A stretch of DNA of 64,000 nt, from the NCBI RefSeq assembly GCF_036961105.1, contig NZ_JBALWW010000006.1, forward strand, positions 15,239 through 79,238, read 5' to 3'. Positions 10,695-40,931 of the stretch are shown in pieces; position 1 is the stretch's first letter; each line of letters begins with the position of its first letter. The DNA comes from Halopseudomonas sp. (GTDB lineage Bacteria > Pseudomonadota > Gammaproteobacteria > Pseudomonadales > Pseudomonadaceae). The position numbers and the translations under genes were made by a program. The notes under the pieces are model-generated. The model saw only the letters and a program-made list of their open reading frames with translations, was not told the DNA's origin and did not search any database.

Positions 10695-11106
10695 TGTTGT
10701 TCTCCTGATGTGAGTCGGTGCGCTGCGTTGGCGCAGAGTCAATAAAGCATGAGAGCTGAAGGTGGGCCTTACGACGATAGTATTAACGTCATCAAAGTGT
10801 CATTGCAGCTCAAGCAGCCCTGGAGGGCCGGAGGCTCGTTCTTGACGGCTCGGTGCATGCTGTTGCTGTTGTTGGCGAGGCAGGTGGGGCGGCTCGTACT
10901 TTAGTCTAGTGCCGGTTGAACAGCGGCTCGAAGGAAGCTGACGCAGGCCTGGTTGGTACTCGTGACGACCCTGGCAAGGTCTAACATCGCGTAGCCTTCG
11001 GTCGTTCGTTTTTGACAGCAGCGGCGGCCTTCGGCAGAGTACGCGACCTTCGGGATTGCTGCGCAAGCGTGCAGACAATCGAGCCTTGGTCTGTTGGAGA
11101 GCGTGA

Positions 11107-21192: not shown

Positions 21193-21269
21193 GCAGCGGT
21201 AGTTCAGTTGGTTAGAATACCGGCCTGTCACGCCGGGGGTCGCGGGTTCGAGTCCCGTCCGCTGCGCCA
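21193..21269 (+). tRNA. tRNA-Asp (GTC)
   Basis: Acceptor stem GCAGCGG/CCGCTGC, anticodon loop CTGTCAC, GGTTCGA T-loop, encoded CCA; 77 nt. Confidence 0.98.
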
Positions 21270-21439: not shown

Positions 21440-22729
21440 TTACTGCGCCCGCGTTACCCGCCAGATGGTATTGGACAGATCGTCGGCAATGATCAGCGCG
21501 CCGCGCGGGTCCAGCGTTACGCCTACCGGGCGCCCGCGAGTCTTGCCATTCTCATCCCGAAAACCGGTGACAAAGTCTACCGGGTCCCCGTTTGGACGGC
21601 CGTTGCTGAAAGGCACGAACACGACCTTGTAACCTACCGGGTCGGGGCGATTCCAGCTGCCGTGCTCCCCAACAAAAGCGCCTTCGGCAAATTCCGCACC
21701 CATGACCTCACTGGAAAAGTCGACGCCCAGAGCGGCAACATGCGAACCCAGCGCATAGTCAGGCTTGACCGCCTCGGCGACCTTCTCCGGCTTCTGCGGG
21801 CGCACGCGCGGGTCTACATTCTGCCCCCAGTAGCTGTAAGGCCAACCGTAAAATGCACCCTCGCGCACGGCGGTCAGGTAGTCTGGCACCAGGTTGGGCC
21901 CCAGCTCATCGCGTTCGTTTACCACCGCCCACAGCTGATCCGTGCCGGGTTGGATGGTAAGCGCGGTCGGATTGCGCAAGCCGGTGGCATAGGGCTTGTG
22001 AGCGCCGGTTTGCGCATCAACCTGCCAGATCATCGCGCGATCCACCTCGGCCGCCATGCCGCGCTCGGTGATGTTGCTGTTGGAGCCGATGCCAACATAG
22101 AGGAAGCGCCCGTCCGCACTGGCAGTCAGCGCCTTGGTCCAGTGGTGGTTGATTGCCGAGGGCAGGTCGGTGAGCTTTTCTGGTGGGCCACTGGCCTGGG
22201 TCTGGCCTGGCTGATAATCAAAGCGCACCAGGGCATCCTGGTTGGCCACGTAGAGGTTGTTGTCCACCAGCGCCAGGCCGTAGGGCGCATTGAGGTTGTC
22301 GGCGAACACGCCCTGGGTTTCGTAGGTGCCATCGCCGTCGCTGTCACGCAGCAGGGTGAGGCGGTTGCCACTTTTTACCGAGGTATTGCCCTGTGCCTTG
22401 ATGTAGCCGGCAATGACGTCCTTGGGTTTCAGTTTGGGCGCGTTGCCTCCGCGACCCTCGGCAACCAATATGTCGCCGTTGGGCAGGACCAGGGTCTGGC
22501 GGGGAATTTTCAGATTGGTAGCTATCGCGGTAATGCTGTAATTCTCCGGCACTGTGGGGCGTTGATCCCCCCAGTTTGCCGGCTCGGCGATGGTCATATT
22601 GGGTAACAGGCCGCGTTGCTGTTCGGGTAGTCGCGGGTCGGGGCCGTATTGAGCTGCTTGTTCGTCAGCGGCCTGCGCGCTCAGGGCCACAGCGGTGGTG
22701 AGTATCAGGATTCGGCTGGTATGTATCAT
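21440..22729 (-). CDS. PQQ-dependent sugar / L-sorbosone dehydrogenase-family beta-propeller
   Basis: INHHWTK, GLRNP, VNERDELGPNLVPDY, HGSWNR, GRPVGV motifs; signal peptide; ATG overlaps the stop codon of the upstream gene. Confidence 0.9.
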   Translation of the reverse strand: MIHTSRILILTTAVALSAQAADEQAAQYGPDPRLPEQQRGLLPNMTIAEPANWGDQRPTVPENYSITAIATNLKIPRQTLVLPNGDILVAEGRGGNAPKLKPKDVIAGYIKAQGNTSVKSGNRLTLLRDSDGDGTYETQGVFADNLNAPYGLALVDNNLYVANQDALVRFDYQPGQTQASGPPEKLTDLPSAINHHWTKALTASADGRFLYVGIGSNSNITERGMAAEVDRAMIWQVDAQTGAHKPYATGLRNPTALTIQPGTDQLWAVVNERDELGPNLVPDYLTAVREGAFYGWPYSYWGQNVDPRVRPQKPEKVAEAVKPDYALGSHVAALGVDFSSEVMGAEFAEGAFVGEHGSWNRPDPVGYKVVFVPFSNGRPNGDPVDFVTGFRDENGKTRGRPVGVTLDPRGALIIADDLSNTIWRVTRAQ

Positions 22730-23163
22730 TGCACACCTCCCACGCGGCGGCTGGAAAAGCGAACGGCGGTGGCGGCGCAGGCCAGCAAGGTTACGATCAC
22801 CGAAAGAATCAGGCCAGTTGGCATCATGGCCCACGCGTCTCTGGCGTGAACCAGAGCATTGATAAACCCGAGAATCCAGGCGGCCACCAGCAGTAGCAGA
22901 TAGATCAGGCTGCGTCCGTCTCTGCCGTGCGGGCGAGTCAGACCCAGCAGGGCGCAGACTATCGCCAGACCGGCATAAACCAGCCCGCCGGCAATCAGCC
23001 ATGAGGAAAAGGTACTCCACTCGATCTGGAAACTCTTGGCATAGGCCAGGTCACTCAGCAGGGCGCCGAGAAACAGCGGCATGCTCCCGGCGAGCAAGAT
23101 GGCGTGCAGCGGGTGTAGCGGGTACAGGATAACCTGATGCGATCGCTCGTTATGAACAGACAC
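22726..23163 (-). CDS. DUF2231 membrane protein
   Basis: HPLHAILLA, FSSWLIAGGL, NALVHARDAW; GTG start after AAGGAG. The family is usually coupled to this dehydrogenase. Confidence 0.85.
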   Translation of the reverse strand: MSVHNERSHQVILYPLHPLHAILLAGSMPLFLGALLSDLAYAKSFQIEWSTFSSWLIAGGLVYAGLAIVCALLGLTRPHGRDGRSLIYLLLLVAAWILGFINALVHARDAWAMMPTGLILSVIVTLLACAATAVRFSSRRVGGVQ

Positions 23164-23319
23164 GGTGATCTCCTTATTGTTGGTTTGGCGGGCCACGTCT
23201 TGCACTGCAGGTTGTCGCCGGGCTAGCGCTGGAGGGCTCAGTGAGTCGCCATCAGCTGTAGCTGGTCCGCCGTCTGGTCCGCCGTGTTGGTGCCCTCGTG
23301 CGAGGCGCGCTCCATAGCT

Positions 23320-23346
23320 TTAGAAGAACAAGGCCTGGTTAAGTTC
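23320..23346 (-). promoter_or_regulatory. sigmaE/AlgU-type promoter of the DUF2231-dehydrogenase operon
   Basis: Minus strand GAACTT-N16-TCTAA. Confidence 0.75.
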
Positions 23347-24825: not shown

Positions 24826-24854
24826 TTGACGCTTTCGGGCAAAGTCACTACTCT
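24826..24854 (+). promoter_or_regulatory. sigma70 promoter of the btuB/cob leader
   Basis: TTGACG-N17-TACTCT immediately before the riboswitch. Confidence 0.7.
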
Positions 24855-24860
24855 TCACGC

Positions 24861-25066
24861 CTGCTTCAGGTTCCCTCTATTCAGAGAGGGTGAAACTGGG
24901 AAGCCGGTGCGTCTGCCAATGCAGACAATTCCGGCGCTGCCCCCGCAACGGTAAGCGATGTTCGCCACAAGGCGATGCGCCTGAGAAAACCACTGTGCTG
25001 TGCATGGGAAGGTTCAGGTCGCAGGATCCAATGATCAACGCGCAAGCCCGGAGACCGGCCTGATGC
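24861..25066 (+). ncRNA. Cobalamin (AdoCbl) riboswitch
   Basis: GGTGAAACTGGGAAGCCGGTG...CCGGCGCTGCCCCCGCAACGGTAA...CCACTG...GGGAAG...AGCCCGGAGACCGGCCTGA (B12 box); P1 TCAGGT/GCCTGA; upstream of btuB. Confidence 0.95.
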
Positions 25067-25195
25067 TATTCACAACAGTGCGGTGGGCGCTGTAGGTGCG
25101 CGGCCCTCGCTATGCTTGTTGCCGTTCCCCTGCCTCCGTCACTGTGTATCTCAGTCAGAGTCGTGCGGGTGGGTACGACGGAGCAACCAAGCAGT

Positions 25196-36057: not shown

Positions 36058-36632
36058 CCCTGTATCTGGAATGGCTGCGCCACGGTGAGACCGAGCTGGG
36101 CGGCGGACTGCGCGGCAGCCTGGATGACGCGCTCACGGCGGCGGGTTGGCAGCAGATGCAGGCCGCTGTGGCGCAGGCCGGCGATTGGCAGCGCATTGTC
36201 AGTTCACCGCTGCAGCGCTGTTCCCGTTTCGCTGAACAGCTCGCGGCGCGGCTGGAACTGCCTTTCGAACATTGCGCGGACCTGCGTGAACTGCACTTCG
36301 GCGAATGGGAGGGGCTGCACCCGCGCGACTTGATGCTGACCCAGGCAGATGAACTCGGACGTTTCTGGGCTGATCCCTATGCCTTTACGCCGCCCGGAGC
36401 TGAACCCTTGCGGGCCTTCTCTCAGCGTATAGACGCGGCTTTGCAGGGGTTGTACGAGGCGTACGCCGGCGAGCGGTTGCTGGTAGTCTCGCACGCCGGC
36501 GTGATGCGTCTGCTACTGGCGCGTGCGCGTGGTCTGGCCCCGGCAGCACTGTTGCAAGTGGTGGTCGGTTATGCCGAGCGCGTACGTCTGGATTATCACC
36601 CAGAGCGCGGCCTGACAGAGCTACCGGCATGA
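36054..36632 (+). CDS. Alpha-ribazole-phosphate phosphatase (histidine phosphatase family)
   Basis: [25 protein letters not shown]; lies between cobT and cobS. Confidence 0.9.
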
Positions 36633-37363
36633 TGCCCTTCGCCCTGGCACTGCAGTTTCTCACGCGCTTGCCGGTGCGCCTGCGCCGCGCGCCCAGCGCA
36701 GAGGAAAGCGCCGAATCGCTGCTCTGGTATCCACTGGTGGGCGTGGTGCTCGGGCTCTTGTTGTTGCTGGGTAATGTCCTACTGAGCGGCGTGGATGTGT
36801 CGCTGCGCGCTGCTCTGTTGCTGGCTGCCTGGGTCTGGTTGAGTGGCGGCCTGCATCTGGACGGCCTGGCCGATACCGCAGATGCCTGGATCGGTGGCTA
36901 CGGCGATCGCGAACGCACCCTGGCGATCATGAAGGATCCGGCCTGCGGACCCATTGGGGTGCTGGCGCTACTGCTGTGTCTATTGCTGAAATACTGCGCG
37001 CTGGCGCTGCTGCTGCAGCACCAGCTCTGGAGTCTGTTGCTGGTTGCGCCCTGGATGGGGCGTTGTCTGTTGCCGCTGCTGCTGCTGACCACGCCCTACG
37101 TGCGGGCCGGTGGGCTGGGCGAGAGCCTGACCCGCGCCATGCCACGCCAGCGTTTGCAGTGGGTTTTGCTGGGCAACGCCGTTGTCTTGCTGTGTTTTGG
37201 CCTGGTCGGCCTGCTGGCGTTCATGACGGCTATCGTCCTGACGCTGCTGGCGCGTCGCCTGCTGCTGCAGCGTTTGGGTGGCACCACTGGTGATACCGCC
37301 GGCGCGCTGTTGGAGGTCGCCGAATGTACGGTTCTGGTAGTGGCGGCCGTAGTGTTAGCTTGA
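36629..37363 (+). CDS. cobS: Adenosylcobinamide-GDP ribazoletransferase
   Basis: QFLTRLP, GGLHLDGLADTAD, IMKDP, GGTTGD. Confidence 0.96.
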   Translation: MMPFALALQFLTRLPVRLRRAPSAEESAESLLWYPLVGVVLGLLLLLGNVLLSGVDVSLRAALLLAAWVWLSGGLHLDGLADTADAWIGGYGDRERTLAIMKDPACGPIGVLALLLCLLLKYCALALLLQHQLWSLLLVAPWMGRCLLPLLLLTTPYVRAGGLGESLTRAMPRQRLQWVLLGNAVVLLCFGLVGLLAFMTAIVLTLLARRLLLQRLGGTTGDTAGALLEVAECTVLVVAAVVLA

Positions 37364-37395: not shown

Positions 37396-37423
37396 GAACT
37401 TTTGCCGCTAGTCTTTCATCTGA
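37396..37423 (+). promoter_or_regulatory. sigmaE/AlgU-type promoter upstream of a micro-ORF
   Basis: GAACTT-N17-TCTGA. Confidence 0.7.
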
Positions 37424-37498
37424 ATGTCATCTGGCATGGCTAACGTAAACCTTGCGATAGCAGTATGTCAGAACCGCCAAGAAGAAAAGGGAGGCGAT

Positions 37499-37582
37499 AT
37501 GAGCGACTATATTGAAGAGTTGATTGAACTGCAGGCGCAGCAACGTGAAGATGAAGTGGTAGAAGACGCTGAAGAGATGTAA
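37499..37582 (+). CDS. Putative 27-aa acidic small protein MSDYIEELIELQAQQREDEVVEDAEEM (below the ORF-track cutoff)
   Basis: AAGGGAGG RBS 4 nt before ATG; TAA at 37580-82; its own promoter upstream. No homology known to me. Confidence 0.6.
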   Translation: MSDYIEELIELQAQQREDEVVEDAEEM

Positions 37583-37670
37583 TTCTCTTCATGCGTTTTC
37601 TACAAAGAGAAAGTAGGTGGCTGTTTCCTCTCGTTTTTTCCTGTCTCGTCATCCCCGCATTTATCTGTTA

Positions 37671-38702
37671 TCAAATCGACTCCTGTGCGTTGCGTGCCAG
37701 CAATAGGGCACGGCGGTAGCTACCGGGCGCTGACCCGCTCCAGCGTTTGAATGCCCGCTGAAATGCCTCCGGTGAGGAAAATCCCAGGAGAAAGGCGATC
37801 TCGCCCAACGCCAGCTCGGTGTCTCGAATGTAGCTGACCGCCAGGTCGCGGCGCATTTGGTCGATGATGTCCTGGAAGCGGGTGTGATCCTCCTGTTGCA
37901 GACGCCGGCGCAAGGTCCAGGAGGGCAACCCCAATTCCCGCGCGACTTCGTCCAGGCTGGGTAGCCGTTGATGAAGCTGCGGCGCGACAATGCTTTCGAC
38001 CCGTTCGCGCAAGGCCCTATGGCGGGTCAGTTCCTGTAAGCGTTGGTCGCACAAGGACAGCAGGTGCTGATAATGGCCTGGCGCGCTCTGCAGCAATGGC
38101 AGCTGCAGGCTGCGCGGCTCCCACACCAGCTGATTCTGGCTCTGGGAAAACAGCACCGGGCATTGAAATACCTCTTCATAGCGCGCTGCATAAGTAGGCG
38201 CGGGAAACTCGATATGCACTTCGCGCAGTTGCGCCTGTGCGCCAGTCAGTTGTCTGGCGGCTAACGCACGTGCTGCCAGGGCAGAATCCACGACAAACAG
38301 GTTGAACATGTTGTAAGGCGCGATGGAGTAAAAGCGCAGCGCCGGAATTTCAAAACTGGAATGCCCGCGATAGTTCTGGCTGGTCAGGCGTTCATATCGA
38401 ACCATGACCTCGAAGGCTTCGCCGAGCGTGGGGGCGCACTGCGCGGTCATGCCAGCCAGGCCCAGGTGGCTGAGCTGGCTATGGTTGCCCATCAGCAGTC
38501 CAATGGCGGGGTTCTGTGTGTAACGGATGGCGGCATTGCCCAGGCGCATGAAGCGCGCAATGCTGATGCGTGCGTGGGGCTCGCTGAGCAAGGCGTCGGT
38601 AATGCCGAAGCGGCGCAGCAGGGGCGCAGGGTCCAGCTGCAGCTGCTGAATAGCCGCGCGCAGGCTGAGCAGATAGCTGACAGAGATGTCGCCGAGTTTC
38701 AT
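37671..38702 (-). CDS. AraC-family regulator (Arabinose_bd_2-type N-domain)
   Basis: C-terminal WTLRRRL...ELALGEIAFLLGFSSPEAFQRAFKRWSGSAPG; divergent from fadH. Confidence 0.92.
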   Translation of the reverse strand: MKLGDISVSYLLSLRAAIQQLQLDPAPLLRRFGITDALLSEPHARISIARFMRLGNAAIRYTQNPAIGLLMGNHSQLSHLGLAGMTAQCAPTLGEAFEVMVRYERLTSQNYRGHSSFEIPALRFYSIAPYNMFNLFVVDSALAARALAARQLTGAQAQLREVHIEFPAPTYAARYEEVFQCPVLFSQSQNQLVWEPRSLQLPLLQSAPGHYQHLLSLCDQRLQELTRHRALRERVESIVAPQLHQRLPSLDEVARELGLPSWTLRRRLQQEDHTRFQDIIDQMRRDLAVSYIRDTELALGEIAFLLGFSSPEAFQRAFKRWSGSAPGSYRRALLLARNAQESI

Positions 38703-38891
38703 GGGCATAGCTCTACAAGTGGCCCGCGAAGGGGGAGCGGTGGCTACGGGATTGTAATTCAAGGTTATGAATGTGTCATTTAAGGTGATTGAGCGGCATC
38801 CCGCCTGGGCCTATTGTTCTGGCCATAACAGGCTCCGGGCAGGTACCCGCGGGCCTATTCGATGTGATGCCGCCTGATGATGCCGGAGTAA

Positions 38892-40931
<2,040 letters not shown>

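What the first reader, a model, noticed from the sequence alone, without database searches (positions are those of the whole stretch)
37396..37670. Hidden sigmaE/AlgU-driven unit encoding a 27-aa highly acidic micro-protein (possibly a dual-function RNA)
Seen: the 300-bp gap between cobS and the AraC gene contains GAACTT-N17-TCTGA (37396-37423), a strong RBS (AAGGGAGG) and ATG-[MSDYIEELIELQAQQREDEVVEDAEEM]-TAA (37499-37582). The peptide has 11 Asp/Glu, one Arg and an amphipathic YIEELIEL start. A GAAGAG/CTCTTC hairpin spans the stop, and a CU-rich tail follows (TTTCCTCTCGTTTTTTCC). The ORF track missed it. Known: GAACTT-N16/17-TCTnA is the Pseudomonas AlgU / sigmaE consensus. Inference: an unannotated envelope- or osmotic-stress micro-protein, such as an acidic mimic or anti-adaptor. 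The CU-rich tail could also pair with SD sequences.
Basis: partly seen in the sequence, partly recalled or inferred. Interest (0 to 1): 0.7.

Follow-up and report, generated by a model that had tools for sequence, protein, structure and literature searches.

The report
Conserved stress-controlled acidic micro-protein gene
The gap between cobS and an AraC-family regulator gene holds a real but mostly unannotated gene for a 27-residue, very acidic protein that is conserved across Pseudomonas and its relatives, always lies tail-to-tail with that regulator, and appears to be switched on by stress-type promoters.

Summary
The 27-codon ORF (37499-37582) is a genuine protein-coding gene. An ortholog lies convergent to the same AraC-family gene in 78 of 80 related loci (Halopseudomonas, Pseudomonas, Bermanella-like). 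The RBS is kept, length changes stay in frame, third codon positions vary about three times more than first or second, and pN/pS is 0.15-0.24. The consensus is M-[DSN]-[DE]-Y-x-E-E-[LI]-[LIM]-E ... [ED]-D-A-[TEQ]-E-[LM]. No Pfam, NCBIfam, Rfam, PDB or literature match was found; public copies are all called 'hypothetical'.

The GAACTT-N16/17-TCnnA (AlgU/sigmaE-type) promoter is conserved in 20-23 of 24 distinct Halopseudomonas-type sequences and absent from the other genera. What the whole family shares is a direct repeat, (T)[G/T]TCAT-N5-(T)[G/T]TCA[T/C]. A [T/C]AnnnT element sits exactly 10 nt after it. This is PhoB (Pho box) geometry, and a matrix built from it picks out a real pstC promoter.

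The hairpin over the stop codon is an intrinsic terminator supported by covariation. The 'CU-rich tail' is not conserved, so nothing supports a dual-function RNA. What the peptide does is unknown. My best guess is a small connector protein acting on the adjacent AraC regulator. Verdict: a real, new small-protein family; its regulation is partly resolved.

The parts
37396..37401 (+). GAACTT, -35 element of an AlgU/sigmaE-type promoter
   Evidence: GAACTT is kept in 20 of 24 distinct Halopseudomonas-type sequences, and GAACnn in 23 of 24, always 16 nt (17 here) before TCnnA, while the spacer sequence varies. It is absent in other genera.
37419..37423 (+). TCTGA, -10 element of the AlgU/sigmaE-type promoter. 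It overlaps the end of half-site 1 and the spacer of the direct repeat.
   Evidence: Variants TCAGA, TCTTA, TCTCA and TCCTA all keep TCnnA.
37413..37430 (+). Direct repeat CTTTCAT-CTGA-ATGTCAT, a PhoB-type (Pho box-like) site for a response regulator
   Evidence: One mismatch to TGTCAT-N5-TGTCAT. The same repeat with an 11-bp period occurs in 72 of 77 orthologous promoters. It matches the P. aeruginosa PhoB ChIP-seq motif (PMC4513871). A matrix built from it hits a real pstC promoter at 18.1 bits.
37441..37446 (+). TAACGT, probable sigma70 -10 hexamer of the activator-dependent promoter
   Evidence: [T/C]AnnnT starts exactly 10 nt after half-site 2 in 67 of 69 distinct promoters. The geometry is the same as in the H. 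xiamenensis pstC promoter.
37430..37472 (+). 5' leader stem-loop. It would be present only in transcripts that start at the AlgU-type promoter.
   Evidence: Folding z = -3.8. Consensus of 15 pairs in 6 relatives, with G.U pairs on this strand and one compensatory change. Hairpins of different sequence sit at the same place in other lineages.
37487..37494 (+). Shine-Dalgarno sequence AAGGGAGG
   Evidence: An RBS-like purine motif lies 3-18 nt before the ATG in 66 of 69 distinct orthologs.
37499..37582 (+). 27-codon ORF plus stop, encoding the acidic micro-protein MSDYIEELIELQAQQREDEVVEDAEEM
   Evidence: Orthologs in 78 of 80 loci. Summed codon-position entropy is 7.9 / 6.6 / 21.3, pN/pS is 0.15-0.24, and lengths of 25-32 aa always stay in frame. 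The profile finds 610 database proteins, all 'hypothetical'.
37559..37603 (+). Intrinsic terminator hairpin: 19 bp with one bulge, stop codon in the loop, U-rich 3' side (GCGUUUUCU)
   Evidence: Across 16 relatives 83% of cells pair, against 46-58% for slid controls. 11 cells changed on both sides (0 of 500 shuffles reach this). The GCC/GCT Ala codon co-varies with the downstream G/A. L005 carries a clear T6 run.
37606..37639 (+). Possibly a back-up terminator.
   Evidence: Fold. The sequence is not conserved in L001-L003.
37671..38708 (-). AraC-family regulator gene (PF12625 ligand-binding domain plus HTH_18), convergent with the sORF. This is the sORF's constant genomic partner.
   Evidence: The sORF lies tail-to-tail with it in 78 of 80 genome loci, and in every sORF-seeded metagenome locus that had room and an AraC match (14 of 18).

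Best explanation
This is a stand-alone small gene.

Shown:
- A roughly 110-175 nt mRNA unit encodes a 27-aa, net -10 charged cytoplasmic peptide. It has a conserved N-terminal M-x-[DE]-Y-x-E-E-[LI]-[LIM]-E motif and a conserved C-terminal [ED]-D-A-x-E-[LM] end.
- The peptide is under purifying selection across Pseudomonadaceae and some Oceanospirillales-like relatives.
- The unit ends at an intrinsic terminator whose 5' arm is formed by the last codons.
- The gene is almost always tail-to-tail with one AraC-family regulator gene, which usually pairs with fadH.

Inferred from sequence:
- Two overlapping promoters drive transcription. The first is family-wide. It is an activator-dependent sigma70 promoter in which a tandem TGTCAT-type repeat takes the place of the -35, 10 bp before the -10. 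The activator is most probably PhoB, which would mean induction on phosphate starvation.
- The second is specific to Halopseudomonas. It is an AlgU/sigmaE-type promoter (GAACTT-N16/17-TCTGA) whose transcript begins with a stabilising 5' stem-loop, which would mean induction on envelope stress.

Inferred with low confidence:
- The peptide acts by binding a basic or hydrophobic surface of a partner protein, as a 'connector' that passes these stress signals to another regulator. The most likely partner is the AraC-family regulator encoded convergently.
For: Coding:
- Orthologs in 78 of 80 loci.
- Invariant residues M1, E6, E7, D-5, A-4 and E-2 (the last three counted from the C-terminus).
- Third-position entropy 21.3 against 7.9 and 6.6; pN/pS 0.15-0.24; indels always in frame.
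- RBS kept in 66 of 69 distinct orthologs.
- 610 homologs in the protein database, including P. aeruginosa and Azotobacter.

Synteny:
- AraC convergent in 78 of 80 loci and fadH divergent from AraC in 75 of 80. Four loci keep sORF-AraC without fadH.
- The upstream neighbour varies: cobS in some, a tRNA-Val/Asp cluster in others.
- A search seeded with the sORF itself recovers the same context.

PhoB-type promoter:
- The motif and its 11-bp period are shared by all lineages.
- The -10 lies at a fixed 10 nt in 67 of 69.
- It equals the P. aeruginosa PhoB ChIP-seq consensus, two (T)GTCAT boxes with a 5-nt spacer (PMC4513871).
- It fits the Pho box definition and its usual position replacing the -35 (PMC4971064).
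- The matrix built from sORF promoters scores 18.1 bits on the pstC promoter and 15.0 on a promoter divergent from phoB. Background hits of 15 bits or more number 2 per 1.35 Mb.

AlgU-type promoter. 5' stem-loop.

Terminator.
Against: - No transcript, start-site, ribosome or proteomic data could be obtained. Logan contigs of candidate RNA runs were flat and unstranded.
- The Pho box spacers (CTGA, CTGG...) are less A/T-rich than in genuine Halopseudomonas Pho boxes (ATAA, AGAA, TAAT).
- PhoB, CopR and CzcR have similar motifs in P. aeruginosa (PMC8599809). The fadH operator next door also uses GTCAT-like half-sites. The activator's identity is therefore not settled.
- The two promoters overlap and would exclude each other.
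- An inverted repeat around the -10 in non-Halopseudomonas lineages implies transcripts that start further upstream. I could not explain this.
- The peptide's partner is a guess from synteny only.
Confidence: 0.55

Rival explanations
1. The gene is the same, but the tandem repeat is bound by something other than PhoB. Candidates are the neighbouring AraC-family regulator (local control) or another OmpR/PhoB-family response regulator such as CreB, CopR or CzcR.
For: - Tight sORF-AraC linkage.
- The conserved fadH operator TGTCAY-N4-GGTSAT uses GTCAT-like half-sites, and Halopseudomonas uses both TGTAAT and TGTCAT at both places.
- CopR and CzcR share PhoB-like motifs with a GTAAT half-site (PMC8599809; PMC11195947; PMC8025907).
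- The E. coli CreB tag TTCAC-N6-TTCAC has the same period (my own knowledge).
Against: - Half-sites in the fadH operator are 10 bp apart within a unit, while the sORF repeat is strictly 11 bp.
- The CusR/CopR site ATTCATnnATGTAAT has TTCAT-N4-GTAAT spacing, not N6. The CzcR first half, GAAAC, does not fit.
- TCAT dominates over TCAC.
- The matrix finds pst- and phoB-linked promoters.
Confidence: 0.3
2. The peptide itself does not matter. Transcription or translation of the sORF acts in cis, sending antisense or read-through transcription into the convergent AraC gene. A ribosome at the stop codon would mask the terminator.
For: - In most Pseudomonas loci the sORF stop abuts or nearly abuts the AraC stop with no room for a terminator.
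- In the window the terminator's 5' arm is made of the last 8 codons.
- The convergent arrangement is conserved.
Against: - Strong selection at the amino-acid level: pN/pS 0.15-0.24, invariant residues, and a conserved N- and C-terminus despite synonymous turnover.
- Halopseudomonas keeps a covarying terminator that would stop such read-through.
- A cis effect could still exist alongside a functional peptide.
Confidence: 0.1
3. It is a non-coding or dual-function regulatory RNA whose CU-rich 3' part pairs with Shine-Dalgarno sequences.
For: - The transcript is short and structured: z = -3.0 for 37430-37670.
- A CU-rich stretch is present.
Against: - The CU-rich stretch lies beyond the terminator and is not conserved even in L001-L003.
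- No Rfam family matches.
- The conservation pattern is codon-periodic.
Confidence: 0.04
4. It is the precursor of a modified peptide or cofactor (RiPP-like, PqqA- or MftA-like) tied to the FadH-like flavoenzyme.
For: - Size and acidity resemble leader or precursor peptides.
- A weak, sub-threshold match to a class III lanthipeptide model: E = 0.22, 12 bits against a cut-off of 22.
- FadH is most similar to mycofactocin-system FadH/OYE models, but far below their cut-off: 415 against 793 bits.
Against: - No maturation enzymes (radical SAM, LanKC and the like) are seen among the neighbours.
- There is no conserved Cys/Ser/Thr-rich core. The conserved parts are the two acidic ends.
- Some loci lack fadH.
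Confidence: 0.03

Closest known systems
Small 'connector' and feedback proteins induced by two-component or stress systems (PmrD, SafA, MgrB, IraP; E. coli YoaI, which is PhoB-induced). From my own knowledge, not tested here.
   Same: - A very small protein.
- Its own promoter carries a response-regulator or stress-sigma signature.
- It is presumed to act by binding a larger regulator.
- It is usually missed by annotation.
   Different: - No sequence similarity to any of them.
- It is soluble and highly acidic, with no membrane helix, whereas MgrB, SafA and YoaI are membrane proteins.
- No partner is known.
- It keeps a fixed synteny with an AraC-family gene.
ANR (AraC negative regulator) small proteins such as Aar, which bind and inhibit AraC/XylS-family activators. 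From my own knowledge.
   Same: - A small helical protein genetically associated with an AraC-family regulator.
- It offers a plausible way for a peptide to modulate such a regulator.
   Different: - ANR proteins are about 60-70 aa, basic to neutral, and activated by the AraC protein they inhibit.
- This peptide is 25-32 aa and acidic, has no Pfam or NCBIfam match, and its promoter looks response-regulator- or AlgU-dependent.
- Membership is not supported. The resemblance is one of mechanism only.
Pho regulon promoters (Pho box) of Pseudomonas and E. coli
   Same: - Two TGTCAT-type 7-bp direct repeats with an 11-bp period in place of the -35, 10 bp before the -10.
- The same layout as the Halopseudomonas pstC promoter.
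   Different: - The spacers are not A/T-rich.
- One half-site is TTCAT rather than GTCAT.
- No expression or binding data exist.
- Here the box overlaps an AlgU-type promoter.
AlgU/sigmaE-dependent promoters (consensus GAACTT-N16/17-TCTGA; for example E. coli rpoH P3, P. aeruginosa algD and algU). Consensus from my own knowledge.
   Same: - An exact -35, a 16/17-nt spacer and a TCnnA -10, conserved across the genus.
- They drive a short transcript, as sigmaE does for several small RNAs.
   Different: - The product is a protein, not an sRNA.
- The motif is missing in orthologs outside Halopseudomonas.
- Dependence on AlgU is untested.

Membership tests
Protein-coding small gene (sORF) | Start codon, stop codon and reading frame conserved in relatives, with indels in multiples of three | tested here: met
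   78 of 80 loci. Lengths of 25-32 aa, always in frame.
Protein-coding small gene (sORF) | Codon-periodic substitution pattern and purifying selection | tested here: met
   Entropy by codon position is 7.9 / 6.6 / 21.3. pN/pS is 0.235 over all pairs and 0.154 within Halopseudomonas.
Protein-coding small gene (sORF) | Ribosome-binding site at the right distance | tested here: met
   AAGGGAGG at 37487-37494. RBS-like in 66 of 69 distinct orthologs.
Protein-coding small gene (sORF) | Direct evidence of translation (Ribo-seq, mass spectrometry, tagged product) | not testable with these tools
   No usable runs. The peptide is not in the P. stutzeri small-protein proteomics tables.
AlgU/sigmaE-dependent promoter | -35 GAACTT, 16-17 nt spacer, -10 TCTGA/TCnnA | tested here: met
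   37396-37423.
AlgU/sigmaE-dependent promoter | Motif conserved at orthologous promoters | tested here: inconclusive
   Met within Halopseudomonas-type sequences: 20 of 24 strict, 23 of 24 relaxed. Not met in Pseudomonas or the outgroups.
AlgU/sigmaE-dependent promoter | Start site about 6-8 nt after the -10 and dependence on AlgU | not testable with these tools
   Only indirect support: a conserved 5' stem-loop with sense-strand G.U pairs begins at about 37430.
Pho regulon promoter (Pho box) | Two 7-bp direct repeats of CTGTCAT type, 11-bp period | tested here: met
   TTTCATCTGAATGTCAT has 1 mismatch in 12 to TGTCAT-N5-TGTCAT. The repeat is conserved family-wide. Consensus taken from PMC4513871.
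Pho regulon promoter (Pho box) | A/T-rich 4-bp segment after each repeat | tested here: not met
   The spacers here are CTGA and CTGG. Genuine Halopseudomonas boxes have ATAA, AGAA or TAAT. P. fluorescens-type orthologs do have TTTT.
Pho regulon promoter (Pho box) | The box replaces the -35 and lies about 10 bp upstream of the -10 | tested here: met
   [T/C]AnnnT lies exactly 10 nt after half-site 2 in 67 of 69. The pstC promoter has the same layout. Position rule from PMC4971064.
Pho regulon promoter (Pho box) | PhoB binding and induction by phosphate limitation | not testable with these tools
   The PhoB ChIP/RNA-seq supplement lists annotated genes only. There is no entry for the genes I believe flank the P. 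aeruginosa ortholog (PA3092-PA3094, assigned from memory).
Intrinsic (Rho-independent) terminator | Stable stem-loop followed by a U-run, with the structure conserved | tested here: met
   19-bp stem at 37559-37603 with a UUUUCU 3' side. 83% of cells pair and there are compensatory changes. The U-run is clearest in L005, L010 and L096.
Any curated protein or RNA family (Pfam, NCBIfam, PADLOC, PDB, Rfam) | Significant profile match | tested here: not met
   No hits at or near threshold.
RiPP or cofactor precursor peptide (lanthipeptide, PqqA, MftA) | Adjacent maturation enzymes and a conserved modifiable core | tested here: not met
   The neighbours are cobS or tRNAs, AraC and fadH. There is no Cys/Ser/Thr core. 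The only match is a 12-bit sub-threshold lanthipeptide hit.

The most novel reading that the evidence does not exclude
A micro-protein found across the Pseudomonadaceae, including P. aeruginosa, is induced by PhoB (phosphate starvation) and, in Halopseudomonas, by AlgU (envelope stress). It works as an acidic connector or anti-activator that binds the convergently encoded AraC-family regulator. This would couple phosphate and envelope stress to FadH-dependent breakdown of unsaturated fatty acids, for example during membrane-lipid remodelling.
Probability: 0.15. Interest if true: 0.75.

Novelty: new member of a known kind. Interest (0 to 1): 0.55.

Why it matters
Proteins under 30 residues are systematically missed by annotation. 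This one is conserved from Halopseudomonas to P. aeruginosa and Azotobacter, has a fixed genomic partner, and carries recognisable stress-promoter signatures. That makes it a well-defined, testable candidate for a new small regulator in a genus of medical and biotechnological importance.

If the PhoB and AlgU inputs and the AraC partner are confirmed, it would add a new type of soluble 'connector' peptide linking two-component and ECF-sigma signalling to a metabolic regulator. Even without a known function, it should be added to Pseudomonadaceae annotations.

Tried and rejected
- Rfam at gathering and permissive thresholds gave only chance microRNA-like hits on the terminator hairpin.
- Pfam, NCBIfam, PADLOC and PDB sequence searches with the peptide or its profile found nothing.
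- The 52-aa extended ORF from ATG 37424 is rejected. The extension is not conserved and the RBS precedes ATG 37499.
- A sigma54 reading of TGGCATG-N4-TTTGT in the Pseudomonas orthologs is rejected. The -12 position is GT rather than GC, the element sits at a different position in Halopseudomonas, and it is absent in many lineages.
- I looked for an AlgU-type promoter in non-Halopseudomonas orthologs and found none.
- RNA evidence failed. No RNA run holds the window sequence. Runs for relatives are kept only as Logan contigs, which are flat and unstranded.
- Literature: there is no paper with the peptide string and nothing in the P. stutzeri small-protein proteomics. The PhoB ChIP-seq supplement has no entry for PA3092-PA3094. 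The DAP-seq supplements are not held. Two older Pho-regulon papers are not held.
- Other Pho-box-like or matrix hits in the window (10787, 14300, 32490, 49813) lack a suitably placed -10 or a Pho-type gene.
- The second AlgU-like motif, at 23320, precedes no recognisable sigmaE-regulon gene.

Full report
**Observation.**
- GAACTT (37396-37401), 17 nt, then TCTGA (37419-37423).
- AAGGGAGG (37487-37494).
- ATG 37499 to TAA 37580-37582, giving MSDYIEELIELQAQQREDEVVEDAEEM.
- A hairpin across the stop codon.
- A CU-rich stretch at 37624-37641.

The 307-bp gap lies between cobS (36629-37363, NF001278) and a convergent AraC-family gene (37671-38708, PF12625 + HTH_18). That gene is itself divergent from a FadH-like 2,4-dienoyl-CoA reductase gene (38895-40931). 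The promoter pattern alone is barely beyond chance: 2 matches against 0.32 expected, and 7 of 100 shuffles reach 2. The question therefore had to be settled by comparison with relatives.

**The ORF is a real gene.**
- Searching one genome per species with the AraC-family protein returned 80 loci from Halopseudomonas (70-90% identity; the window is a Halopseudomonas), Pseudomonas sensu lato and a few outgroups.
- A small ORF of the same type lies just past the 3' end of the AraC gene, on the opposite strand, in 76 loci by a strict pattern. Two more have Q-D-E in place of x-E-E, giving 78 of 80.
- The consensus is M-[DSN]-[DE]-Y-x-E-E-[LI]-[LIM]-E, a variable acidic middle, then [ED]-D-A-[TEQ]-E-[LM]-stop. 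M1, E6, E7 and, counted from the C-terminus, D-5, A-4 and E-2 are invariant.
- Lengths run from 25 to 32 aa and stay in frame.
- Summed positional entropy is 7.9, 6.6 and 21.3 for codon positions 1, 2 and 3. pN/pS is 0.235 over all pairs and 0.154 within Halopseudomonas.
- A purine-rich RBS precedes the ATG in 66 of 69 distinct sequences.
- A profile search of 5.8 billion proteins found 610 relatives. None has a Pfam domain and all named ones are 'hypothetical protein'. They include P. aeruginosa HB15 (MDDYQEELLEQHAAECDLPEPADDATEM), Azotobacter vinelandii and P. viridiflava.
- Pfam, NCBIfam, PADLOC, PDB and Rfam give nothing. No paper contains the peptide.

**Context.**
- fadH is divergent from the AraC gene in 75 of 80 loci. 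Four loci keep sORF-AraC without fadH.
- The gene upstream of the sORF changes. It is cobS in 7 of 13 Halopseudomonas loci and a tRNA-Val/tRNA-Asp cluster with its terminator in many Pseudomonas.
- A metagenome scan seeded with the sORF itself gave 18 loci. An AraC match lay convergent in 14 of them; three of the other four are too short to show it, and L101 gave no match at the threshold used.
- The constant partner is therefore the AraC-family gene.

**3' end.**
- The GAAGAG/CTCTTC pairing is the core of a 19-bp hairpin (37559-37603) with the stop codon in its loop and a U-rich 3' side.
- Across 16 Halopseudomonas-type sequences, 83% of cells pair, against 46-58% when partners are slid.
- Eleven cells changed on both sides, which 0 of 500 shuffles reach.
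- The synonymous GCC/GCT Ala codon co-varies with the downstream G/A.
- Relatives such as L005 have a plain T-run.
- This is an intrinsic terminator built partly from the last codons.
- The 'CU-rich tail' is the 3' arm and T6 run of a weak second hairpin (37606-37639) and is not conserved even in the closest relatives. I find no support for a base-pairing RNA function.

**Promoter.** Two signals overlap.

*(i) An AlgU/sigmaE-type promoter, within Halopseudomonas only.* GAACTT-N16/17-TCnnA is present in 20 of 24 distinct sequences, and GAACnn in 23 of 24. The spacing is constant while the spacer sequence is free. Immediately after it comes a stem-loop (window 37430-37472, z = -3.8). In the six closest relatives it has 15 consensus pairs, several of them G.U on the sORF strand, plus one compensatory change. 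More distant relatives have hairpins of different sequence at the same place. This fits an AlgU-type start near 37430 and a 5'-terminal stabilising hairpin.

*(ii) A PhoB-type box, in every lineage.* The GAACTT element is absent outside Halopseudomonas. What all lineages share is a direct repeat, [C/T][G/T]TCAT-N4-n[G/T]TCA[T/C] (window CTTTCAT-CTGA-ATGTCAT, 37413-37430). [T/C]AnnnT begins exactly 10 nt later in 67 of 69 distinct promoters (window TAACGT, 37441-37446).
- This is the layout of an activator-dependent sigma70 promoter in which a response-regulator dimer replaces the -35.
[quoted passage not shown] It also matches the general Pho box definition and position (PMC4971064).
- The window site has 1 mismatch in 12.
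- To test this without relying on memory, I fetched phoB loci of Halopseudomonas and Pseudomonas. A matrix built only from the sORF promoters scores 18.1 bits on the H. xiamenensis pstC promoter. That promoter has the same 7+4+7+10+hexamer layout. The matrix also scores 15.0 bits on a promoter divergent from phoB. Hits of 15 bits or more elsewhere number 2 in 1.35 Mb.

*Caveats on the PhoB reading.*
- The spacers here are not A/T-rich.
- The phoB promoters themselves (CTGTCAC-ATAA-CTGCAAT) score low.
- CopR and CzcR have PhoB-like motifs.
- The conserved fadH operator next door also uses GTCAT-like half-sites, though at 10-bp spacing: TGTAAT-N4-GGTTAT-N5-TGTCAT-N4-GGTGAT, abutting -35 TTGAGC and -10 TATTGT.

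I rate PhoB as the activator at about 55-60%, another regulator at about 30%, and a functional AlgU-type promoter in this genus at about 65-70%.

**Unexplained.** In putida-type, fluorescens-type and outgroup loci, an inverted repeat pairs half-site 2 with the sequence just after the -10. Examples are CTGTCATT...AATGACAG and CTTCACC...GGTGAAG. If this is an RNA structure it needs a start site upstream of the repeat, and I could not identify one there. Read-through from the tRNA operon is one possibility.

**Function.** Nothing tested here reveals what the peptide does. It has no membrane segment, carries a net charge of about -10, and has a short amphipathic N-terminal motif and a conserved acidic C-terminal end. 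Adjacency with the AraC-family gene is conserved at family level while both outer neighbours change. The most economical hypothesis is a small 'connector' that binds that regulator, working like PmrD, SafA or IraP, or like ANR anti-activators, though it belongs to none of those families. I give this about 25% taken alone.

- A purely cis, antisense role is unlikely given the selection on the amino-acid sequence, but it could coexist with a functional peptide.
- RiPP or cofactor-precursor readings lack the required enzymes and a modifiable core.

**What failed.**
- No RNA run holds the window.
- Runs for relatives are stored as unstranded contigs with flat depth.
- Supplementary tables of PhoB studies list annotated genes only.

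**Verdict.** This is a real, previously uncharacterised small-protein family with a stress-type promoter. Its AlgU input is specific to the genus, and its ancestral input looks like PhoB.

Noticed in passing
window 38753-38817 (AraC-fadH intergenic region): A conserved operator forms a 21-bp direct repeat, 14 of 21 identical: TGTAAT-N4-GGTTAT-N5-TGTCAT-N4-GGTGAT. It abuts a sigma70-like fadH promoter (-35 TTGAGC 38789-94, -10 TATTGT 38812-17). The core TGTCAY-N4-GGTSAT-TGAGC is kept from Halopseudomonas to Pseudomonas. It is probably the AraC-family regulator's binding site.
   Followed up: partly
L015, L019, L024, L034, L041, L071 (for example L015 5271-5638): In many Pseudomonas species the sORF lies directly downstream of a tRNA-Val / tRNA-Asp (two or three copies) cluster and its terminator, on the same strand. 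An Asp/Glu-rich peptide next to tRNA-Asp genes may be coincidence.
   Followed up: partly
orthologous promoters, e.g. L079, L080, L077, L011; window 37430-37472: A sequence-variable but complementary inverted repeat encloses the putative -10, with its 5' arm at half-site 2. It implies an RNA hairpin and hence transcripts that start upstream of the repeat. Outside Halopseudomonas this is unexplained.
   Followed up: partly
window 24851-25077 (+) and 21193-21266 (+): A cobalamin riboswitch (RF00174, 101.9 bits) lies upstream of the cob gene cluster. There is also a tRNA gene.
   Followed up: no
window 23320-23346 (-): A second exact GAACTT-N16-TCTAA motif lies upstream of a 159-aa membrane ORF (22726-23205) and an overlapping 526-aa ORF (21440-23020) that was not run against any family library.
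   Followed up: partly
window 10787-10803 (+): The Pho-box-like site CGTCATCAAAGTGTCAT (1 mismatch) lies between an OprD-family porin gene and an NhaC-type antiporter gene. No -10 sits at the expected distance, so it is probably chance.
   Followed up: partly
L081 15280-15320 and L082 20606-20690: Likely genuine Pho boxes in Halopseudomonas. One is CTGTCAC-AGAA-CTGCAAT, before a TonB-dependent receptor and phytase pair. The other is CTGTAAT-TAAT-CTGTCAT, before pstC. Both are useful as a genus-specific reference set.
   Followed up: partly
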